DNA from: Candidatus Heimdallarchaeota archaeon
GTDB lineage: Archaea; Asgardarchaeota; Heimdallarchaeia; Hodarchaeales; Hodarchaeaceae
Reading direction: 5' to 3'
DNA length: 64,000 bases
NCBI GenBank assembly: GCA_019057635.1
Contig: DXJL01000066.1
Coordinates: 7,541-71,540, forward strand
Shown here: positions 27,100-54,833 of the stretch, one piece after another
Position numbering within the stretch: position 1 is the stretch's first letter
Layout: each line of letters begins with the position of its first letter
Notes under the pieces: model-generated
What the model saw: only the letters and a program-made list of their open reading frames with translations
Told to the model about the DNA's origin: nothing
The model's database searches: none
Made by a program: the position numbers and the translations under genes

Positions 27100-27333
27100 T
27101 TATTGCCCTAGATCAGCGAAAATTTTTACAGCTTTGACAGGACATACGATTTCACAAGCACGACATTCAAAGCATTTCTCCGGAGAGATAATTTCGAGAA
27201 ATCCTTTTCCATCATTATTACTCTTTGGATTTGAGATGAGGATTTCTGCTGGACAGCTCTTAGTGCACTTCCAGCATAAAATACAAAGATCCCTATTTCT
27301 CTCGATCTTTGGGGGAATATTATCCTACCTCAT
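27100..27333 (-). CDS. 2x[4Fe-4S] ferredoxin ORF with in-frame TAG at codon 3 (or a non-canonical start)
   Basis: Hand translation gives M-R-TAG-DNIPPKIERNRDLCILCWKCTKSCP...EKCFECRACEIVCPVKAVKIFADLGQ*. Two complete CxxCxxCxxxCP motifs. Missing from the ORF track because no ATG/GTG/TTG follows the TAG. Confidence 0.7.
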
Positions 27334-29393
27334 TTCGTAAGTAAGTTCCTTAGCTCAATTAAAACTTTATCAATCTCGTTGTTTGCTTTTCTAAGTTTAT
27401 TATCATAATCGATTTTTAACTTAGCATAAGCTTCTTTTCCAATCCGACCTTGAGTTTTCTTCTTCTCTAATGACTCAATATTAATCAAGTAATCTTCTCT
27501 ACTCGCCTCAGCAACTTCAATTGATCGCATAGACAACCGTATACGAGGATTTTCCTCAGCAAGTTTGCGAGAAACAGAGACAATAGTCCGATCATTCTGT
27601 TGCTGTTGATTTCGGAGAATAATTTTTGTCTGCTCATATTCTCGGGCACTAATATTTTTTGATTTTCGTTTGCGATCCAATCTTAGTATCTGTTCGCGAA
27701 TTGCTGTCTTCTCTTCATACGATTTAACGAAACTTTTAATCAAATCTAGTGGTATTTCTTCAAGTACGAGTTTTGAGGGTTTATATCCAAATGAAAGGTT
27801 TCTAACAAGAGCGTATGCTAGACCAATTAATAAAAAGAATAATGAAAAAGAGATTGGAGTATAAAGTTGGTTTAATGGACTTATTCCATATTCTATTCTA
27901 ATTTGCTTATTACTAAGCGGGGTTAATTCTTCAAAACTTAACTTATATCCTCTACTATTAAATAGACCTAAGAATTGTTTTTTCTGAATAGCTGAAACAG
28001 AAACGGGACTTCTCAATGAACTTTCAAATGTTGCATCCATAATTTTTGTTCTGGATATGGATGATCCAAATGGGAATAGTAATTCAAGATCGTACTCTTG
28101 AATTGTACAATTGAAGCTTGTTGACAGATCAGTTAATAGTTGTACTTTTCCCCCGCCGAGATTGTTAATAACCTTAGTCGATGGTTGTGTGAACGAGAGT
28201 AGGAGATGATACTCTGCACCTTGTTCTATCTGGACTCTTGGTCTAAACTCAATTACTTTTTTCTGTGTTACTGGATCTGCATCTACAATTGGAGTGATAT
28301 TTCCGTAGTTATCTTTAACTCCAATTTTACTCGCAGAATCTGGGACGTTAAATGATAATGTAGGAAAAGTCGTTCCTCCAAGTGCGGTTGATAGGACAGG
28401 TCCAGATTGTAATCCTATATTTTTTAGACGTATTTCTTGCGTGGTGAACACTTTTCCCCACTCCGATACTTCAATAGTGGTCACCAAAGAAGTGAATGTC
28501 ATAAAAGTTCCAGCAACCTGGAAATAGTCAAATGTCAAATTCTCTGTTAAATTATGAGCAATATTCGGTTTGTAGGAAGGAATAAAGTTCCGATTTGCAA
28601 GAGCTGTAAGATTATAGTTACCATGTTCAGATTGATTTAGAACTTCCCGATTAATTGATGATAATTCTTGAATTTCCTCGTAACGAAGAGTAGTTAATTC
28701 TTGATTAATATTTCCAGTAAAATTTGTTTCTGTTGGCCTTAATGATTCATTATTTATATTAATACTAATATCTTTTCCTACCATCCATTTTAAAGTGTAA
28801 GAAGTAATGGGAATGGTAAGTAAAGGTAAAAAACTTAAATTAAAATGGTAAGGATATTCCGACTCCACAAGTTCATCGTTTTGATCATAAGTTATGGCGT
28901 TCGGATGATCCATATCCATAATTAGAGTGACTGTCTCCTCAGAACCGACTGAAGGAAATTTTATAACAATTTCTGTTGTTTGATTTCCAATGTGAACATC
29001 ATATGCTGTGTTTTCAGTCTCTGTATCATTCTGTGAGTAAATTTTGAAATACTTGGAGCTATTATACTCATTTGTTGGAAGAATATAATTTAAAGCGTTG
29101 ATTTCAGTGGAACTATTGCTTGATATCTGAATCTCTGTTCTAGATGAAGTATATCCATATTGGTTTGCAGTTATTGTTCGATCTACATTAATTAGATGAC
29201 TTGTGTTAGTAAATTCAGTAACATCGAAATACATTAAATCTGTGATGTTTAAATTACTGTTTTTTGTGTTCACTGAATCGGTGCTCGAACTCGCCTCACC
29301 AGCGTTAACTTGGGGATTAGCGATCAAGAATGTCGAAGTAATAACTATGGCGAGTAGTAAAAAACGCAAACCATTTCCTAAGATTTTCTTCAT
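27330..29393 (-). CDS. Ribophorin I / Ost1-like oligosaccharyltransferase subunit homologue
   Basis: Signal peptide, about 500-aa lumenal/extracellular domain, single TM (ISFSLFFLLIGLAYALV), about 150-aa coiled-coil tail. Blocks IEVSEWGKVFTTQEIRLKNIG and KDNYGNIT...EFRPR resemble conserved ribophorin I blocks as I recall them. Confidence 0.75.
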   Translation of the reverse strand: MKKILGNGLRFLLLAIVITSTFLIANPQVNAGEASSSTDSVNTKNSNLNITDLMYFDVTEFTNTSHLINVDRTITANQYGYTSSRTEIQISSNSSTEINALNYILPTNEYNSSKYFKIYSQNDTETENTAYDVHIGNQTTEIVIKFPSVGSEETVTLIMDMDHPNAITYDQNDELVESEYPYHFNLSFLPLLTIPITSYTLKWMVGKDISININNESLRPTETNFTGNINQELTTLRYEEIQELSSINREVLNQSEHGNYNLTALANRNFIPSYKPNIAHNLTENLTFDYFQVAGTFMTFTSLVTTIEVSEWGKVFTTQEIRLKNIGLQSGPVLSTALGGTTFPTLSFNVPDSASKIGVKDNYGNITPIVDADPVTQKKVIEFRPRVQIEQGAEYHLLLSFTQPSTKVINNLGGGKVQLLTDLSTSFNCTIQEYDLELLFPFGSSISRTKIMDATFESSLRSPVSVSAIQKKQFLGLFNSRGYKLSFEELTPLSNKQIRIEYGISPLNQLYTPISFSLFFLLIGLAYALVRNLSFGYKPSKLVLEEIPLDLIKSFVKSYEEKTAIREQILRLDRKRKSKNISAREYEQTKIILRNQQQQNDRTIVSVSRKLAEENPRIRLSMRSIEVAEASREDYLINIESLEKKKTQGRIGKEAYAKLKIDYDNKLRKANNEIDKVLIELRNLLTK

Positions 29394-31519: not shown

Positions 31520-32932
31520 TTATTTTGAGTTCCTTAGGTTTGTTGAATTTTTTGACCCGACTTCCTTAGCTTTAAACAGAAGGAGGATCCCAGTAACGCT
31601 AAGCATGAAAAGAAATAGTAATGTTTCTAAAAATCCTATTTTCTCCAAAATAAATCCAAGAATACTAAATCCGATTATAGAGACTGTGAGAGACAACGTA
31701 TTCAAATAAGATTCTTGAGAGCTTCGATATTCTGATAGTGTTATATCGTAATATAAATGCCAATGAAGTCCTGAGGTCAACCCACTGATAATGAGCCGAC
31801 TCAAGAAAATAATTATAATAAATATCAGACGCCAATAATAACTGATATTCACTAGGAGAATAAAGAAAAATAAAATCCAAGCTAGAGGGAAATTCAGAGT
31901 ATAAAATGCAACTAATCCTTGACGGGGAGATTTAATAAATGATGTGAATCTACCTGAAAACCTACTTGAAACTCCGTATATAAAATCTGTAATAGAATTA
32001 ATTAAAGATATAATCAATATAGCGAGTGAACTAAAATCAATTTTGACATATTCTCCATTCACAACATTATCAGAAGATAATAAAGAATAAATAATTAATG
32101 GAAAAACAATAGTTGTGAAAGCCAGTGAAGTAAAACTAAGGATACCAAAACTAAGAAAATAGGGTGAGACAGCGAGGTATTTTATCCGTAAATTATTCCC
32201 CAAATTTCTAATATTTGAAAAAAGATGGAACTTATTATTCTCAGATGTTAAGCGAACATGTATATTCCTCCCTACAGGGTTATAGTTCACCATAATAATA
32301 AATCCAAGAATGAAACCCACTAATGCAATAAATGCCTGTAATAAAAATATCAATTGGGGAGCTAGATGCACTTGGTACAATAAAATTCCTCCCAAAATGG
32401 TTAAAGAGGAAACTGCGATCATTTTAACGAATTTCACATTGCCCATTGTACTTCGAAATAGTCTCTCACTTTTTTCATTTCTATCCACAATATTTTCCCA
32501 AGAATTCAGAAACCATGCAATAAATGAACCTGAAAGAAGGGCAGAAAATATACCTACTAATATTTCAAGACATAATAGCTGAAACGAACTCGTAGCAAAA
32601 ATTAATCCTAGGTAATAAATCGTTAAACATCCTAAAGCCGCACAAAAGGCCCCTCTTTGACCAAACTTGTCAGTGAGCATCCCTAATGGAAGATCTAATA
32701 CAATCCCAAAGAACATACCAATGGCTACGATACTACCAAAAAGTGCGTATGATCCAAGAATTGAGATATAATATAAAGAAATCCATGCATGGCTAAGATA
32801 AATTACTGTAATGATGAGTTCAAGACTAAAAAACCTCAATGTTAGGCTTTTCAGTTCTTTCGGATAATATTTTACACCCAATAAGGTATCAACATATAAC
32901 ATTTGTTTAATCTCCTGTTCATAAACAATCAT
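31520..32932 (-). CDS. MFS-type transporter
   Basis: About 12 TM segments and MFS motif A, GMLTDKFGQRG, between TM2 and TM3. Confidence 0.75.
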   Translation of the reverse strand: MIVYEQEIKQMLYVDTLLGVKYYPKELKSLTLRFFSLELIITVIYLSHAWISLYYISILGSYALFGSIVAIGMFFGIVLDLPLGMLTDKFGQRGAFCAALGCLTIYYLGLIFATSSFQLLCLEILVGIFSALLSGSFIAWFLNSWENIVDRNEKSERLFRSTMGNVKFVKMIAVSSLTILGGILLYQVHLAPQLIFLLQAFIALVGFILGFIIMVNYNPVGRNIHVRLTSENNKFHLFSNIRNLGNNLRIKYLAVSPYFLSFGILSFTSLAFTTIVFPLIIYSLLSSDNVVNGEYVKIDFSSLAILIISLINSITDFIYGVSSRFSGRFTSFIKSPRQGLVAFYTLNFPLAWILFFFILLVNISYYWRLIFIIIIFLSRLIISGLTSGLHWHLYYDITLSEYRSSQESYLNTLSLTVSIIGFSILGFILEKIGFLETLLFLFMLSVTGILLLFKAKEVGSKNSTNLRNSK

Positions 32933-32938
32933 TCTTGA

Positions 32939-34312
32939 TTAAGCAGGAGTAAGCTGTTGTGCAACACTAGAGACTAAACTGAAATTAACAATGGGGAATG
33001 ATTGAGAATTAACCTCCCCTCCAGATATAATGACAAGATACGGAATTTTTCCTAATATCTGGGCATAATGTTCCATATACTGTTGAAATCGATCTCCAAC
33101 AATCATTGCACGATTACCACAATCAAAGAATAGGCCAAATTTTGTGTTGTTTCCAATTAAAGAAGATAAGCTTTCATCTAGTAAATTCTCAATTGTTACC
33201 GCACTTTGATTACAGATATACGATTGATATTTATCTTTATGATTGACATATAGTTTTTTAGCAACCTGATTCGGTGCAGTAATTAAAGCATGATTAAGAT
33301 TTGGATTTATTGAAAGTCCATATAAATTTTGACTCTTCTTATCATCTAAAATACATAAAGGCTTAAAGGGGTGGTAATAGAAATATTTTTGGGTACATTC
33401 TTCAAGAATTTCTGGAGTACTCTCCATTTCATATATTTTAAGTAAAGATTTCGCTCCCCATTGACCGTCTATTCGCGGAATAAATCCTCCATCCAAATAA
33501 CTGTCAAGAGAGAAAGGTTTCTGGAAATCTACCGTTGCTCCAGTATCAGTTTTACTCATGAATCTTAAATCAGGAGAGCTAAGTGATATAAATGTCATAG
33601 AATCTTTAAATGCCTTATAATTGTAAAATTGATACGATTTACTCATTGAAATGGGATCTACCCCAAATGTACCGGTATAATGAATACCTCGTTGATATAA
33701 TTCTTGAAATAAAGGCCATGCTGATGAATATGATATTCCAATGCCAAAGAGATTCATGAGAAAATTAACAACTTTCCCTGTGAACCGGGAAAGAGCTGGT
33801 ACATCCCTCCAGATTCGATTATTTAAGGCAAAAAATGGATTAAATCCTTCAAGTCTATGATTCATTAAATTTACCATAAGTTTCGGAAATCCTAGACCAG
33901 GAGGAAAAAAGATGAAACTTGTAGAAGAATTCTGTTTTAATTCTTTATTTTCAATGGTTATACATTTTTTTAGAATTTCTTTGGTTTTGGTTCCTGTCCT
34001 AAGACGGAAACGCTTAATTAAATGTGTACTGACCGATATACCTGAAAAAAGCATGATTGCAGCTCCTTTCAGACCATAATCCTTACTATTCGCTATTCCA
34101 GTCCCCGAACATCCTGCTAAAGGAATAGTTGGATATGTTTTCTTGATAATCTTTAAAGATTGATTATATACTTTCTTACCACCAGGATGGGTTCCAGTAA
34201 AGTAAAGAATTCCAGTTGGTTCCGTATTTAACTCAGTTTCAGCTTGTTGAAGAGCTGTCTTTGTTGCGAATTTTAGATCGTGATTTATACAAAGTCCAAC
34301 GGAAGTTTTCAT
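32939..34312 (-). CDS. FIST-domain (FIST_N + FIST_C-like) putative sensor protein
   Basis: N-terminal pattern ...TGILYFTG....IPLAGCSGTGIA... and size and architecture fit FIST. Assigned from memory of the family pattern. Confidence 0.55.
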   Translation of the reverse strand: MKTSVGLCINHDLKFATKTALQQAETELNTEPTGILYFTGTHPGGKKVYNQSLKIIKKTYPTIPLAGCSGTGIANSKDYGLKGAAIMLFSGISVSTHLIKRFRLRTGTKTKEILKKCITIENKELKQNSSTSFIFFPPGLGFPKLMVNLMNHRLEGFNPFFALNNRIWRDVPALSRFTGKVVNFLMNLFGIGISYSSAWPLFQELYQRGIHYTGTFGVDPISMSKSYQFYNYKAFKDSMTFISLSSPDLRFMSKTDTGATVDFQKPFSLDSYLDGGFIPRIDGQWGAKSLLKIYEMESTPEILEECTQKYFYYHPFKPLCILDDKKSQNLYGLSINPNLNHALITAPNQVAKKLYVNHKDKYQSYICNQSAVTIENLLDESLSSLIGNNTKFGLFFDCGNRAMIVGDRFQQYMEHYAQILGKIPYLVIISGGEVNSQSFPIVNFSLVSSVAQQLTPA

Positions 34313-34764
34313 TGCTCTAAATCACCTATTGATTGTTTTCTATCTATTACTATTCCTAAACGCTTCGCAGTTCTGCTCATCTCTATTTCCATTAATCCAG
34401 TATTCGCCCTAGAATGTAATATCACAACTAAAATCCCTGAGTTACCAGCACGGTAGAAATAAACTGGAAGTGCTTCATTTTGATCTATTTGTTTATTATA
34501 TTTTATAGATCTAGCACCATGTTTGAGTTCTTCTTTTGTTTTTGAAATAATGTCTTTTACCCATCTAATAACAGTTAGGATAGAACTAGAAGTTTCTGGA
34601 TTATAAAAAGAGGTTAAAACTCTTCCATCTAAGCGAAAAAGAATTGTTGCTCTTACATCTCGAAATGTAAAAAGATGGTCAGCTTCTATTTGGATTGATG
34701 AGATTGCTCTGGATAATTTTAAGGCCTGATCATCCATATTACTTATTGGAGATTTCATAAACAA
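34309..34764 (-). CDS. Roadblock/LC7 (MglB-like) domain protein
   Basis: ...ILFRLDGRVLTS... and C-terminal ...GILVVILHSRANTGLMEIEMSRTAKRLG match the prokaryotic Robl_LC7 pattern. The real start may be Met10 at 34737. Confidence 0.7.
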   Translation of the reverse strand: MFMKSPISNMDDQALKLSRAISSIQIEADHLFTFRDVRATILFRLDGRVLTSFYNPETSSSILTVIRWVKDIISKTKEELKHGARSIKYNKQIDQNEALPVYFYRAGNSGILVVILHSRANTGLMEIEMSRTAKRLGIVIDRKQSIGDLEQ

Positions 34765-35491
34765 TTAATCCTTTTTCTTTTTGAAAACTGATAGGTTGAG
34801 GAGTTTCAGAGTGTGACGATCCTCTAAATTTTCTAATACTCATTGTTCGATTGTAGATGCCTCCTAATCCAATATGTTCTAGTTCTATAATGGAATCGGA
34901 TAGAAAAAGAGGGATTCTAGCTAAGACATCTCCAAAACCTTTTTCTAATGTGACTACGGCTGTTCCAATCTCTCTAAGAGATGAAAAAATTCGATTGATT
35001 GCGTTACGCTGTTGATTTGGGTCTGAAATTTCTAAAAGTAATGGTGTCAAAGGATCAATTGCTATTCGTATTCCTCCCGAATATTTTGAAGCGGTTTCTT
35101 TTATTATTTCAAGATATTTAGGGAGTTCATTCATAAAAAATCTTAAACCAATTTCTCCTGAAGTTAATTCTGAGTCGGCATTAAAAGCAACTTGGAATTG
35201 TAAATTCCCCTCTCTGTATTTTTCACCAAAGCTTTTCAATCCAATATCACTACAGTCTCTTAATACCGAATTTATATTTTGCTCTAGTGACACATAGAGA
35301 GCTGGAGTGTGTAGATCAGATGAACAATACTGCCAACAAAAAGTGGATTTTCCACACCCAGGATCCGCAATAATCACGTTGACCGAATGCTCTCTAAATC
35401 CACCATTTACAAGGTTGTCAAAGCCGATTACTCCACTAGGTATCCGCGAAGATCGTGCATTTATCGTTTTTCTCAATAATTTTTGCATCAT
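34739..35491 (-). CDS. KaiC/RecA-superfamily single-domain ATPase
   Basis: IPSGVIGFDNLVNGGF followed by Walker A ADPGCGKST and Walker B RIAIDPL. Confidence 0.75.
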   Translation of the reverse strand: MMQKLLRKTINARSSRIPSGVIGFDNLVNGGFREHSVNVIIADPGCGKSTFCWQYCSSDLHTPALYVSLEQNINSVLRDCSDIGLKSFGEKYREGNLQFQVAFNADSELTSGEIGLRFFMNELPKYLEIIKETASKYSGGIRIAIDPLTPLLLEISDPNQQRNAINRIFSSLREIGTAVVTLEKGFGDVLARIPLFLSDSIIELEHIGLGGIYNRTMSIRKFRGSSHSETPQPISFQKEKGLIVYEISNK

Positions 35492-35498
35492 TAATTCC

Positions 35499-36089
35499 TC
35501 ATGAAACTAATAGTTTATTAGATAATTGAGTATTTGAATCTGAAGATATGTTCGTTAATTTACTGTTTTTTCTTTCGATTGTCAATAGAACTTTCTCAAA
35601 AATATTTATAACCGATTTTAAATCTTTAGCTGAACATTTAAAAGAAGTTACACAATTAAACCTTTGAATATATCTCGCTAAATCGAAATTTTTCTCATCT
35701 TGAGTTGCTAAGTCGGATTTTGTACCAATTAAAAATCGGGGAATAGCAGGTGTGATAAACTCAAGCCATTCACTTAGATTGAATAAGGAAGAAAGATCAG
35801 TAAGGTCGAAACAAAGTAATGCGGCATCAGCACCCTTACAAAATTCACTAAAGACTCCCATGTGTTTGAAATGCTCTTGACCACCAAGATCCCAAATCTG
35901 TAGCTTGCTCACTCCCTTATCAGAATGAGTAATAATCTTCGAATGGAACTCTACTGCAATCGTTTGTTTCGATTTTGTGAAAAAATAATTATCGATGTAT
36001 GATTTCGAAATTGTTGTTTTTCCTACACCCCCTTCTCCCAAAAGAACTATTTTCAATGGTTTTTTTTCTTTCGAAGGAACTAACTGCAA
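35499..36089 (-). CDS. Ras-superfamily small GTPase, Rab-like
   Basis: G1 GEGGVGKT, switch I QTIAVEF, G3 WDLGGQE, G4 GTKSD, G5 CSAK. Confidence 0.88.
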   Translation of the reverse strand: MQLVPSKEKKPLKIVLLGEGGVGKTTISKSYIDNYFFTKSKQTIAVEFHSKIITHSDKGVSKLQIWDLGGQEHFKHMGVFSEFCKGADAALLCFDLTDLSSLFNLSEWLEFITPAIPRFLIGTKSDLATQDEKNFDLARYIQRFNCVTSFKCSAKDLKSVINIFEKVLLTIERKNSKLTNISSDSNTQLSNKLLVS

Positions 36090-36191
36090 TAATTACACCT
36101 AATCCCTTAGTAATTGAGTCTAATTTAAACTCCTAAAAAACACTAAATTTGGGGATATTATAAAGAATTTTTTTCTTGATTTCATGGTGGA

Positions 36192-36407
36192 ATGATGAAA
36201 AGGCGTTATAGTTTGAAAGGTATTCATTCAATAAACACAAGAATACGAATTAAAAGAAGAGGTTCTCCACTTGTGGAAGAAGGAATATTGATAGGATTGA
36301 GTTTATTCGGTTTTTTGTTAATTTTTTCAATAGTTACAGGAGTCCTAGATTGGCTTTTGATAAATGCAGATGAGCTATTACGAGAACTTGGGTCTTTATT
36401 TACTTAG
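36192..36407 (+). CDS. 71-aa membrane protein with a class III (type IV pilin-like) signal-peptide-like N-terminus
   Basis: IKRRG/SPLVEEGILIGLSLFGFLLIF: basic stretch, Gly, then a hydrophobic helix with Glu at +5. Confidence 0.35.
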   Translation: MMKRRYSLKGIHSINTRIRIKRRGSPLVEEGILIGLSLFGFLLIFSIVTGVLDWLLINADELLRELGSLFT

Positions 36408-36549
36408 ATGCAGCTCATCTTGACTTTTTTTGTTACAAACCGCTATCTATTGTCTGAAAAATACCTATCGGCTATTTGAAATTATTTAATGCTCTCAAAA
36501 ATTACGTAGATTTGTTTTGCAAAGTAAAAATTATTAAAAGAGTGTGATA

Positions 36550-36624
36550 TGGACCGAGTGGGATTTGAACCCACGGCCTCCTGGATGCAAACCAGGCGCT
36601 GCTACCAAGCTGAGCTATCGGCCC
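36550..36624 (-). tRNA. tRNA-Ala(UGC)
   Basis: GGGCCGATAGCTCAGCTTGGTAGCAGCGCCTGGTTTGCATCCAGGAGGCCGTGGGTTCAAATCCCACTCGGTCCA. Has a G3:U70 pair and anticodon loop TTTGCAT. No intron. Confidence 0.93.
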
Positions 36625-36667
36625 AATGACTTGATTTCTGATTATTTAGTTGTGTTTTATTAAGCTT

Positions 36668-54698: not shown

Positions 54699-54833
54699 TG
54701 GGCCCACCCGGATTTGAACCGGGGATCTCTCGGTTTCTATCGGCAGCCTGGGAAACCAGTTGCGTTATCAGCATCACCCGCCCAGAAAAATTTCTGAACG
54801 TCGAGCGCTTTAACCAGGCTAAGCCATGGGCCC
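54699..54833 (-). tRNA. tRNA-Ile(GAU) with two introns (30/31 and 37/38)
   Basis: Exons 54833-54802, 54772-54766 and 54734-54699. They join to GGGCCCATGGCTTAGCCTGGTTAAAGCGCTCG-GCTGATA-ACCGAGAGATCCCCGGTTCAAATCCGGGTGGGCCCA, a standard archaeal tRNA-Ile cloverleaf. Confidence 0.8.

What the first reader, a model, noticed from the sequence alone, without database searches (positions are those of the whole stretch)
31520..36089. Gap-free five-gene operon: Rab/Ras-like GTPase, KaiC-like ATPase, Roadblock/LC7, FIST, MFS transporter
All five ORFs are on the minus strand and tightly packed. The junctions are a 7-nt spacer, a 26-nt overlap (or a 1-nt spacer if Roadblock starts at Met10), an ATGA overlap at 34309-34312, and a 6-nt spacer. 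A single transcript with translational coupling is very likely. Roadblock/LC7 proteins are the established partners of small GTPases (MglB for MglA; LAMTOR/Ragulator for Rag GTPases). FIST is a predicted small-ligand sensor domain. The last gene is a transporter carrying MFS motif A. One reading is a solute- or nutrient-sensing GTPase switch with an added RecA/KaiC-type ATPase. The logic recalls Rag-Ragulator-SLC38A9, although nothing here shows homology to that pathway beyond the Roadblock and GTPase folds. GTPase-Roadblock pairs and KaiC-like signalling hubs have been noted in archaeal comparative genomics. I do not know of a characterised five-part module with FIST and MFS, and I cannot verify that from here.
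Basis: partly seen in the sequence, partly recalled or inferred. Interest (0 to 1): 0.85.

Follow-up and report, generated by a model that had tools for sequence, protein, structure and literature searches.

The report
KaiC–Roadblock–FIST–GTPase signalling operon in Hodarchaeales
This is a real five-gene operon from a Hodarchaeales archaeon (the Asgard group closest to eukaryotes); its conserved core is a KaiC-like ATPase paired with a Roadblock-fold protein and a FIST protein, to which a Rab-like GTPase and a transporter were added later, so it offers a rare testable pairing of an Asgard GTPase with candidate regulators.

Summary
Five minus-strand genes at 31520-36089 are tightly packed, each is preceded by a Shine-Dalgarno-like motif, and all are under purifying selection (dN/dS 0.04-0.16).

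All five domain calls are supported:
- Ras/Rab-like GTPase.
- Single-domain KaiC-like ATPase.
- Roadblock fold. Pfam gives no hit, but the AF2 model matches Asgard Roadblock and MglB.
- FIST.
- MFS transporter.

Two start codons need correction. This makes the KaiC/Roadblock overlap 20 nt and the FIST/MFS spacer probably 36 nt.

Comparative genomics changes the interpretation.
- KaiC–Roadblock is the invariant pair. It occurs in Hodarchaeales, Heimdallarchaeaceae, other Heimdall MAGs, Methanoperedens and Methanohalarchaeum.
- FIST usually follows the pair.
- The GTPase is found only in Heimdallarchaeia. It comes first in Hodarchaeales and last in Heimdallarchaeaceae. It is lost in two Hodarchaeales genomes and degenerate in one.
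- The MFS gene is confined to Hodarchaeales, although a different MFS gene sits in the same slot in one other lineage.

Best reading: a KaiC-centred signalling module with a Roadblock adaptor, a FIST input and a recruited GTPase output. It is not a GTPase switch with an added ATPase, and it is not a Rag–Ragulator homologue.

I found no description of it in the searchable literature. I rate it a new variant of known kinds.

The parts
36122..36165 (-). Divergent promoter region. It holds two conserved TATA-like boxes: ctttataata at 36156-36165 and tttaaatt at 36122-36129. The promoter-proximal box lies about 35 nt upstream of the GTPase start.
   Evidence: Sequence. Both boxes and a GGTG Shine-Dalgarno-like motif are conserved in an alignment of 16 orthologous intergenic regions. 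That they act as promoters is an inference.
35499..36089 (-). Rab/Ras-like small GTPase, 196 aa, TTG start. G1 is GEGGVGKT, G2 is QTIAVEF, G3 is WDLGGQE, G4 is TKSD (TKxD rather than NKxD) and G5 is CSAK. The C-terminus has a conserved ..SKxLL[IV]S and no Cys.
   Evidence: Pfam Ras 4.1e-31. Best PDB sequence matches are Ypt7/Rab7, Rab9 and Rab11. Motifs come from the orthologue alignment. dN/dS 0.04-0.09.
34739..35491 (-). Single-domain KaiC/RecA-like ATPase, 250 aa. Walker A (GCGKST), the catalytic Glu (SLEQ), Walker B (IAIDPLT) and KFRGSSH are all intact. It is the most conserved gene of the module.
   Evidence: Pfam PF06745 7.8e-29. NCBIfam KaiC-type hits. Aligns to KaiC CI domains in the PDB at 5.9e-28. 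74-79% identity across Hodarchaeales.
34309..34758 (-). Roadblock/LC7-fold protein of the AF0774 family (PF27410), 149 aa from ATG 34758. The open frame extends to TTG 34764. It overlaps the KaiC stop by 20 nt and the FIST start by 4 nt.
   Evidence: No Pfam-A hit. AF2 pLDDT 87.5 with alpha-beta-beta-alpha-beta-beta-beta-alpha topology. Foldseek top hits are Asgard Roadblock3 (9jue), MglB and LAMTOR. The family profile hits Thorarchaeota Robl_LC7 (7f8m) at E 0.0032. Family member L061 hits Robl_LC7 above threshold. The start codon comes from the orthologue alignment.
32939..34312 (-). FIST_N + FIST_C protein, 457 aa, soluble.
   Evidence: Pfam FIST 2.5e-7 (31.2 bits against a cutoff of 23.2). 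FIST_C 1.3e-5 is below its cutoff. AF2 pLDDT 83.6. The only significant PDB fold matches are the FBXO22 FIST structures, at 3.6e-7.
31520..32902 (-). MFS-type transporter with about 11-12 hydrophobic segments and motif A (GMLTDKFGQR). The probable start is ATG 32902 (Met11), with ATG 32932 as the alternative. It is a lineage-specific addition in Hodarchaeales.
   Evidence: Pfam MFS_1 2.6e-7 (30.3 bits, below the cutoff of 33.4). Hydropathy. Orthologues align from Met11, and that ATG has a GGAG motif upstream. It is the least conserved gene of the five (41-49%).
36192..36407 (+). Conserved divergent neighbour: a 71-aa single-TM protein that shares the intergenic promoter region. Whether it belongs to the module is unproven.
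   Evidence: Present at this position in every Hodarchaeales locus with enough flank, at 71-93% identity. dN/dS 0.09-0.13. No Pfam or PADLOC hit. Not found next to the Heimdallarchaeaceae module.

Best explanation
This is a cytoplasmic, KaiC-centred signal-transduction module transcribed as one operon.

Proposed mechanism:
- A single-domain KaiC-like ATPase acts as the hub. It is probably hexameric, like other KaiC/RecA-family proteins, and its ATPase motifs are intact.
- Its constant partner is a Roadblock-fold protein of the AF0774 family. This protein plays the 'second component' that reads the ATPase or phosphorylation state of KaiC-like hubs.
- The FIST protein supplies the input. It may bind a small molecule or a protein partner.
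- In Heimdallarchaeia the module recruited a Rab-like small GTPase. The Roadblock protein is the likely link between KaiC state and the GTPase nucleotide state, acting as a GAP- or GEF-type platform in the way MglB acts on MglA.
- In Hodarchaeales an MFS transporter is co-transcribed. It either delivers the sensed solute or is the regulated target.

Shown here: the gene structure, the domain identities, intact catalytic motifs in both NTPases, and the pattern of co-conservation.

Inferred: all physical interactions, the direction of signal flow, and the nature of the signal.
For: Operon structure:
- Junctions are a 7-nt spacer, a 20-nt overlap, a 4-nt overlap and a 6- or 36-nt spacer.
- A GGTG/GAGG/GGAG motif precedes the GTPase, KaiC, FIST and MFS starts; the Roadblock start has only a weaker AAGGA.
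- One conserved promoter region lies upstream.

Domain identities.

The KaiC-Roadblock pair is invariant. The two genes are adjacent or overlapping in every locus examined that had enough flank:
- 18 of the 20 Hodarchaeales loci (L024 is broken by an assembly gap and shows no KaiC; H. mangrovi L003 is the same contig as L023).
- L027.
- L025, L026, L060, L061, L062 and L063.
- 21 Heimdallarchaeaceae loci.
- L058.
- Eight of nine Methanoperedens, Methanohalarchaeum and related loci; L057 ends inside the Roadblock gene.

An exhaustive profile search found only 35 clusters of this Roadblock subfamily among 1.84 billion representative proteins.

FIST follows the pair in Hodarchaeales, L027, L063, L058, Heimdallarchaeaceae and Methanoperedens L053-L056.

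The GTPase is linked in two different gene orders and two unrelated genomic contexts. This argues for selection on the linkage rather than inherited synteny.

A natural fusion joins an AF0774-type Roadblock domain to a Ras-like domain (P0239).

A second, non-orthologous MFS gene sits directly after FIST in L058.

Literature frame: KaiC-like ATPases are proposed archaeal signalling hubs that act through a second component (PMC4858521; PMC5847659).
Against: - There is no experimental or structural evidence for any interaction. I could not run a multimer prediction.
- The GTPase is absent from two Hodarchaeales loci and degenerate in H. mangrovi. The rest of the module therefore works without it.
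- The ligand or partner of FIST is unknown. The only solved FIST protein binds a protein, not a metabolite.
- MFS linkage is seen in only two lineages, and MFS genes are common.
- Within Hodarchaeales the whole block of about 12 genes is syntenic, including secY, RIO and KH genes. Conservation inside that order alone says little.
- Some KaiC-Roadblock pairs at 48-56% identity may be paralogues rather than orthologues.
Confidence: 0.55

Rival explanations
1. The module is a small-GTPase switch of the MglA/MglB or Rag/Ragulator type. The Roadblock protein is primarily the GTPase's GAP or GEF. FIST and MFS provide nutrient sensing, and the KaiC ATPase is an accessory.
For: - The Roadblock fold matches MglB and LAMTOR.
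- The GTPase has intact G motifs and a catalytic Gln.
- A Roadblock-Ras fusion exists (P0239).
- GTPase linkage is kept in two gene orders.
- MFS genes recur after FIST.
Against: - This Roadblock subfamily is always next to KaiC and often has no GTPase nearby.
- The GTPase is lost or degenerate in three Hodarchaeales lineages while the other four genes stay intact.
- The GTPase is Rab-like and has no C-terminal roadblock domain. Its Gtr1_RagA hit scores 21.2 bits against a cutoff of 22 and covers only residues 13-76.
- SLC38A9 is not an MFS protein (established knowledge).
- No LAMTOR1-like or DENN gene is present.
Confidence: 0.2
2. Only KaiC-Roadblock, perhaps with FIST, is a functional unit. 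The GTPase and the MFS gene are neighbours kept by synteny and operon drift, with no shared function.
For: - The whole region is syntenic in Hodarchaeales, including clearly unrelated housekeeping genes.
- MFS has the loosest junction and the lowest conservation.
- The GTPase is dispensable in some genomes.
Against: - The GTPase stays attached after moving from the first to the last position, in an unrelated context, in 18 Heimdallarchaeaceae genomes.
- It is also attached in L027, whose flanks differ.
- MFS stays attached to FIST in L002, L011 and L019-L022, where the secY flank is gone.
- A different MFS gene occupies the same slot in L058.
Confidence: 0.15
3. A KaiC-type timing or oscillator system, with the Roadblock protein substituting for KaiB.
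For: - Best sequence matches are bona fide KaiC CI domains.
- The literature notes that archaeal KaiC-like proteins pair with KaiB-like or substitute second components.
Against: - The protein has a single RecA-like domain, not the CI+CII double domain of clock KaiC.
- No KaiA or KaiB gene is in the neighbourhood.
- Nothing indicates rhythmic behaviour.
Confidence: 0.05

Closest known systems
Archaeal KaiC-like ATPase signalling hubs (Makarova, Galperin & Koonin 2017; ArlH/FlaH and related proteins)
   Same: Both have a single-domain KaiC/RecA-like ATPase with intact motifs. In both, this gene lies in an operon with a small 'second component' and a putative sensor domain.
   Different: Here the second component has a Roadblock fold (AF0774 family) rather than being KaiB-like or DEATH-like. 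The input is FIST, and a Rab-like GTPase is attached. I could not read the 2017 paper, which is not held. I therefore cannot exclude that it lists a KaiC-Roadblock or KaiC-FIST link.
MglA-MglB (bacterial polarity GTPase and its Roadblock-fold GAP)
   Same: The fold matches MglB, including the extra C-terminal helix. A small GTPase is encoded in the same operon.
   Different: The GTPase is Rab-like, not MglA-like. The Roadblock gene's constant neighbour is an ATPase, not the GTPase. The sequence relationship to MglB is marginal (E 0.0085; 0.49).
Rag GTPases-Ragulator-SLC38A9 (eukaryotic lysosomal amino-acid sensing)
   Same: The logic is similar: Roadblock-fold proteins, a small GTPase and a transporter. 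LAMTOR subunits and the RagA/C C-terminal domains appear among the fold hits.
   Different: There is no Rag-type GTPase architecture, no LAMTOR1, and the transporter belongs to a different superfamily. A KaiC ATPase and a FIST protein have no counterpart in the eukaryotic system. This is analogy only.
Asgard LAMTOR1-like Roadblock / Rab-like GTPase / DENN operon (Liu et al., bioRxiv 10.1101/2020.10.19.343400)
   Same: Both are conserved Asgard operons that combine a Roadblock-superfamily protein with a Rab-like GTPase.
   Different: The partners differ: KaiC and FIST here, DENN there. The distribution is restricted to Heimdallarchaeia for the GTPase-containing form. That paper's text does not mention KaiC or FIST.
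FBXO22 (eukaryotic F-box protein with FIST_N/FIST_C)
   Same: It is the only solved FIST structure and the only significant fold match to the window's FIST protein.
   Different: FBXO22 is a ubiquitin-ligase substrate receptor with an F-box. The window protein is a stand-alone FIST protein with only about 10% identity to it.

Membership tests
Ras-superfamily small GTPase (Rab-like) | G1-G5 nucleotide-binding motifs, including the catalytic DxxGQ | tested here: met
   GEGGVGKT, QTIAVEF, WDLGGQE, TKSD and CSAK are conserved in orthologues. G4 is the TKxD variant. Pfam Ras 4.1e-31.
Ras-superfamily small GTPase (Rab-like) | C-terminal Cys prenylation motif typical of eukaryotic Rabs | tested here: not met
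   The C-terminus is ..NKLLVS with no Cys. The conserved ending is LL[IV]S.
KaiC / RecA-like ATPase (PF06745) | Profile match above threshold, with Walker A, Walker B and the catalytic Glu | tested here: met
   101.1 bits against a cutoff of 26.6. GCGKST, SLEQ, IAIDPLT and KFRGSSH align to KaiC CI.
Circadian KaiC proper | Duplicated CI+CII domains with KaiB/KaiA partners | tested here: not met
   The protein is 250 aa with one domain. NCBIfam KaiC equivalogs score far below their cutoffs (83.8 against 408). No kaiA or kaiB gene is in the neighbourhood.
Roadblock/LC7/MglB superfamily | alpha-beta-beta-alpha-beta-beta-beta fold | tested here: met
   AF2 pLDDT 87.5 and pTM 0.82. Foldseek hits 9jue, 1j3w, 3t12, 6hjm, 7f8m and LAMTOR at E 1e-4 to 6.5e-7.
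Roadblock/LC7/MglB superfamily | Sequence-profile membership (PF03259 Robl_LC7) | tested here: inconclusive
   The window protein has no Pfam-A hit. The family profile hits Thorarchaeota Robl_LC7 (7f8m) at E 0.0032. Family member L061 scores 25.2 against a cutoff of 23. Precomputed hits assign the homologues to PF27410 'AF0774'.
Roadblock/LC7/MglB superfamily | GAP or GEF activity on a partner GTPase | not testable with these tools
   This needs biochemistry. The only indirect support is operon linkage and the P0239 fusion.
FIST domain proteins | FIST_N and FIST_C profile matches | tested here: met
   FIST_N scores 31.2 against a cutoff of 23.2. FIST_C scores 25.8, below its cutoff of 28.5, in the window protein. 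Both are above threshold in the related L058 protein (59.8 and 39.4). The fold matches FBXO22.
FIST domain proteins | Binding of a small-molecule ligand (the predicted sensor role) | not testable with these tools
   The prediction comes only from domain-architecture studies. The solved FBXO22 FIST binds a protein.
Major facilitator superfamily | About 12 TM helices, motif A between TM2 and TM3, and a profile match | tested here: inconclusive
   MFS_1 E 2.6e-7, but 30.3 bits is below the cutoff of 33.4. Motif A is GMLTDKFGQR. There are about 11-12 hydrophobic segments. Orthologues carry precomputed PF07690 hits.
Rag-Ragulator-SLC38A9 pathway | Rag-type GTPase with a C-terminal roadblock domain, a LAMTOR scaffold and an SLC38-type transporter | tested here: not met
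   The GTPase is 196 aa with no extra domain. Its Gtr1_RagA hit is partial and below threshold. Its best matches are Rab7, Rab9 and Rab11. The transporter is MFS-like.
Anti-phage defence systems | Match to a known defence protein family | tested here: not met
   PADLOC returned only a weak hit confined to the P-loop region (residues 13-33; 0.0023) for the GTPase and nothing for the other proteins.

The most novel reading that the evidence does not exclude
In the closest archaeal relatives of eukaryotes, a RecA/KaiC-type ATPase controls the nucleotide state of a Rab-like GTPase through a dedicated Roadblock-fold adaptor. It does so in response to a FIST-sensed signal tied to solute transport. 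This would be a previously unknown way of driving a small-GTPase cycle: an ATP-powered hub in place of classical GAP/GEF control. It would also be a possible prokaryotic forerunner of transporter-coupled GTPase nutrient signalling.
Probability: 0.2. Interest if true: 0.85.

Novelty: new variant of a known kind. Interest (0 to 1): 0.63.

Why it matters
Asgard archaea encode many small GTPases and many Roadblock or longin proteins. It is mostly unknown which regulator acts on which GTPase, because the genes are rarely in operons. Tran et al. 2024 say this explicitly for MK-D1 (PMC10933270). Liu et al. note that most Asgard eukaryotic-signature genes lack conserved neighbourhoods.

This module is an exception. 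It is found in Hodarchaeales and Heimdallarchaeaceae. It names one specific Rab-like GTPase, one Roadblock protein, one ATPase and one FIST protein that can be expressed and tested together.

It also extends the proposed archaeal 'KaiC hub' signalling scheme with a new class of second component (Roadblock fold) and a new output (a small GTPase). Finally, it gives the poorly understood FIST domain a defined genetic context.

Tried and rejected
- Defence system: PADLOC found nothing meaningful.
- Rag/Ragulator homology: rejected on GTPase architecture and family.
- SRP-receptor-like reading (small GTPase plus a longin/Roadblock protein next to secY): rejected. The GTPase has no SRPRB hit, and the Heimdallarchaeaceae module is not near secY.
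- L024 looked like a truncated module but contains a run of N, which is an assembly gap.
- P0238, a 1463-aa hit to the Roadblock profile, is a WD40 repeat protein and a false positive.
- The KaiC-GTPase fusion near the Methanoperedens triplet occurs only in L053 and L054, so it is not a conserved link.
- An alignment of all distant Roadblock groups (A2) was too diverse for a locus search.
- Both metagenome scans (P0239 and A6) returned nothing.
- The key KaiC-hub paper (mBio 2017, PMC5717392) is not held.
- Literature searches for FIST+KaiC+archaea and for AF0774 gave only irrelevant papers.
- The sigma-70 promoter and intrinsic-terminator scanner was not used, because it does not model archaeal signals. 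T-runs are too common in this AT-rich DNA to be informative.

Full report
**Source of the window.** Over 12.7 kb spanning this region, the window is 96.9% identical in nucleotides to contig NJBF01000005.1 of 'Candidatus Heimdallarchaeota archaeon B3_Heim'. Orthologues of its genes are named Hodarchaeales or Hodarchaeum in public records. The organism is therefore a Hodarchaeales (class Heimdallarchaeia) Asgard archaeon.

**Observation.** The five minus-strand ORFs are at exactly the stated coordinates. The 7-nt GTPase/KaiC spacer and the ATGA Roadblock/FIST overlap are as described.

Two start codons need adjusting.
- Roadblock gene: all 40 aligned orthologues begin at the residue matching Met3 (ATG 34758). 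Independent gene calls in L001 and L002 show the same 20-nt overlap with the KaiC gene. The overlap is therefore 20 nt, not 26 nt, and the alternative of a 1-nt spacer is not supported either.
- MFS gene: most orthologues align from Met11. That ATG (32902) has a GGAG motif upstream, whereas ATG 32932 has none. The FIST/MFS spacer is probably 36 nt, and other genomes have 19-50 nt at this junction.

The GTPase's TTG start is supported. It aligns with ATG or GTG in orthologues and is preceded by a conserved GGTG.

GGTG-, GAGG- or GGAG-type motifs precede the GTPase, KaiC, FIST and MFS starts. The unit is bounded upstream by a divergently transcribed 71-aa gene and tRNA-Ala, and downstream by convergent secY. 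The divergent intergenic region holds two TATA-like boxes that are conserved in 16 genomes.

All five genes are under purifying selection, with dN/dS of 0.04-0.16 against three relatives at dS near 1.

**Domain identities.**
- GTPase: Pfam Ras 4.1e-31. Its best solved relatives are Ypt7/Rab7, Rab9 and Rab11. G1-G5 are intact and include the catalytic Gln. G4 is TKxD. The C-terminus ends in a conserved LL[IV]S and has no cysteine.
- ATPase: PF06745 KaiC 7.8e-29. It is a single RecA-like domain that aligns to KaiC CI domains. Walker A, the catalytic Glu, Walker B and the KFRGSSH motif are all present.
- Roadblock candidate: no Pfam-A hit, and only a marginal NCBIfam MglB hit. An AF2 model built on 41 homologues is confident (pLDDT 87.5, pTM 0.82) and has the alpha-beta-beta-alpha-beta-beta-beta(-alpha) topology. 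Its best PDB fold matches are Asgard Roadblock3, MglB, MglC, LAMTOR subunits and Rag C-terminal domains. At the sequence level, the family profile reaches a Thorarchaeota Robl_LC7 protein at E 0.0032, and one family member passes Pfam's Robl_LC7 threshold. Precomputed annotation places the family in PF27410 'AF0774'.
- FIST: FIST_N is above threshold and FIST_C just below it. The AF2 model (pLDDT 83.6) has FBXO22, the only solved FIST protein, as its only significant PDB match.
- MFS: E 2.6e-7 but slightly under Pfam's cutoff. It has motif A and about 11-12 hydrophobic segments.

**Conservation within Hodarchaeales.** A profile-guided scan of one genome per species found 20 loci.
- Fifteen carry all five genes in the same order.
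- Two are cut by a contig end or an assembly gap (L012, L024).
- Two lack the GTPase (L009, L011).
- In Hodarchaeum mangrovi the GTPase slot holds an intact ORF that still matches a GTPase profile (E 3e-15) but has lost the P-loop and G3.

The whole block is also syntenic: methyltransferase, Csl4, RIO, KH, the 71-aa gene, the module, secY and a 687-aa protein. Conservation inside this order alone therefore cannot prove functional linkage.

**Conservation beyond Hodarchaeales.** This evidence decides the interpretation. An exhaustive profile search found only 35 clusters of this Roadblock subfamily among 1.84 billion representative proteins. Loci for the divergent groups show the following architectures.

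| Lineage | Architecture | Calls |
|---|---|---|
| 21 Heimdallarchaeaceae genomes, including AB_125 | KaiC-Roadblock-FIST-GTPase with short overlaps and spacers (4-nt overlaps in L029), in an unrelated context. 18 are complete and 3 are cut by contig ends | 47, 48, 50, 56; AB_125 assignment from 10.1101/2025.05.16.653879, |
| L027 | GTPase-KaiC-Roadblock-FIST, different flanks, no MFS | 33, 65 |
| L063 | KaiC-Roadblock-FIST | 102 |
| L058 | KaiC-Roadblock-FIST followed by a clear MFS_1 gene (6.9e-39) that is not an orthologue of the window's MFS | 82-84 |
| Methanoperedens | Overlapping KaiC-Roadblock pair, with FIST next in L053-L055 (L056 has one inserted gene and a split FIST); no adjacent GTPase | 51, 52, 55, 56 |
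| Methanohalarchaeum, and Heimdall lineages L025, L026, L060-L062 | KaiC-Roadblock pair only | 31, 32, 52, 90-92 |

In summary:
- KaiC-Roadblock is invariant.
- FIST is usual.
- The GTPase is a Heimdallarchaeia-specific addition, but its linkage survived a change of gene order and of genomic context.
- MFS is a late addition that has occurred at least twice.
- A natural protein, P0239, fuses an AF0774-type Roadblock domain to a P-loop-less Ras-like domain. This gives independent support for a Roadblock-GTPase connection.

**Mechanism.** The best-supported reading is a KaiC-centred signalling module. Published comparative work proposes KaiC-like ATPases as archaeal signalling hubs that act through a state-dependent second component. 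That component is usually unidentified (PMC4858521; PMC5847659). Here the Roadblock-fold protein is the obvious candidate, because its gene overlaps or directly adjoins (within 37 nt) the ATPase gene in all lineages.

FIST would provide the input. In Heimdallarchaeia the Rab-like GTPase would be the output switch, most plausibly contacted by the Roadblock protein in the way MglB contacts MglA.

All interactions and the direction of signal flow are inferences. The FIST ligand is unknown, and the one solved FIST domain recognises a protein.

The MFS link suggests that solute transport is the source of the signal or its target in some lineages. This rests on only two lineages.

**Comparison with known systems and novelty.**
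- The module is not a member of the Rag-Ragulator system. The GTPase has the wrong architecture and belongs to the wrong family.
- It is not an MglAB pair. The GTPase is Rab-like, and the ATPase is the constant partner.
- It is not a clock KaiC system. The ATPase has a single domain, and no KaiA or KaiB gene is in the neighbourhood.
- It is not a known defence system.
- The Asgard Roadblock-GTPase operon already described pairs a LAMTOR1-like protein with DENN. That paper's text does not mention KaiC or FIST.
- Full-text searches for FIST with KaiC in archaea, and for AF0774, found nothing relevant.
- The main KaiC-hub paper could not be read, so prior mention of a KaiC-Roadblock or KaiC-FIST link cannot be excluded.

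I rate the finding a new variant of known kinds. It is moderately to highly interesting, because it gives a specific and testable GTPase-regulator set in the archaeal lineage closest to eukaryotes.

Noticed in passing
window 36192-36407 (+): A 71-aa protein with a basic N-terminus and one TM helix, transcribed divergently from the operon. It is 71-93% identical across Hodarchaeales, which approaches the conservation of SecY. dN/dS is 0.09-0.13. It has no Pfam or PADLOC hit and its function is unknown.
   Followed up: partly
window 36549-36625 (-) and 54699-54833 (-): tRNA-Ala(TGC) lies between the KH-domain gene and the 71-aa gene. A second tRNA match spans 135 nt, which suggests an intron.
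   Followed up: partly
L054 10320-11489 (also L053 10181-11347): Methanoperedens encodes a 389-aa fusion of a KaiC-like N-terminal domain with a Ras/Arf-like GTPase domain. It lies 2.5 kb downstream of the KaiC-Roadblock-FIST triplet and is preceded by a DUF7504 KaiC-like gene. It is absent from L055 and L056.
   Followed up: partly
P0239 (337 aa, representative-library hit): A natural fusion of an AF0774-type Roadblock domain with a Ras-like domain that lacks the P-loop (Pfam Ras 1.5e-14 from profile position 21). Its genomic context could not be recovered.
   Followed up: partly
L003 5787-6266 (Hodarchaeum mangrovi; same in L004 and L023): The GTPase slot holds an intact 159-aa ORF that still matches the GTPase profile (E 3e-15) but has lost G1 and G3. 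It is either a pseudo-GTPase or a decaying gene.
   Followed up: yes
L026 3916-4482 and 4850-5383; L060 5422-5952; L058 4143-4628 (-): Small proteins sit next to KaiC-Roadblock pairs in lineages without the GTPase. Three of them form one family of about 180 aa (43-55% identity to each other). Of these, L026 3916-4482 has a weak longin-domain hit (Fuz_longin_1 0.0055); the unrelated L058 protein also has one (1.4e-4).
   Followed up: partly
L062 7369-7809: A canonical Robl_LC7 gene (4.2e-9) directly follows the AF0774-type Roadblock gene. This locus therefore has two Roadblock-fold genes after KaiC.
   Followed up: no
window 27330-29393 (-): A 687-aa protein with an N-terminal signal-like segment, a C-terminal TM helix, many N-x-S/T sites and a charged coiled tail. 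It is conserved in synteny beyond secY and has no significant Pfam hit.
   Followed up: no
L029 3640-4915 (-): Two genes are transcribed divergently from the Heimdallarchaeaceae module. One is a 252-aa protein with weak PCI, E3-UFM1-ligase and DDRGK-like hits. The other is a 141-aa OST3/OST6-like membrane protein. An OST3/OST6-like gene also lies near the pair in L025.
   Followed up: no
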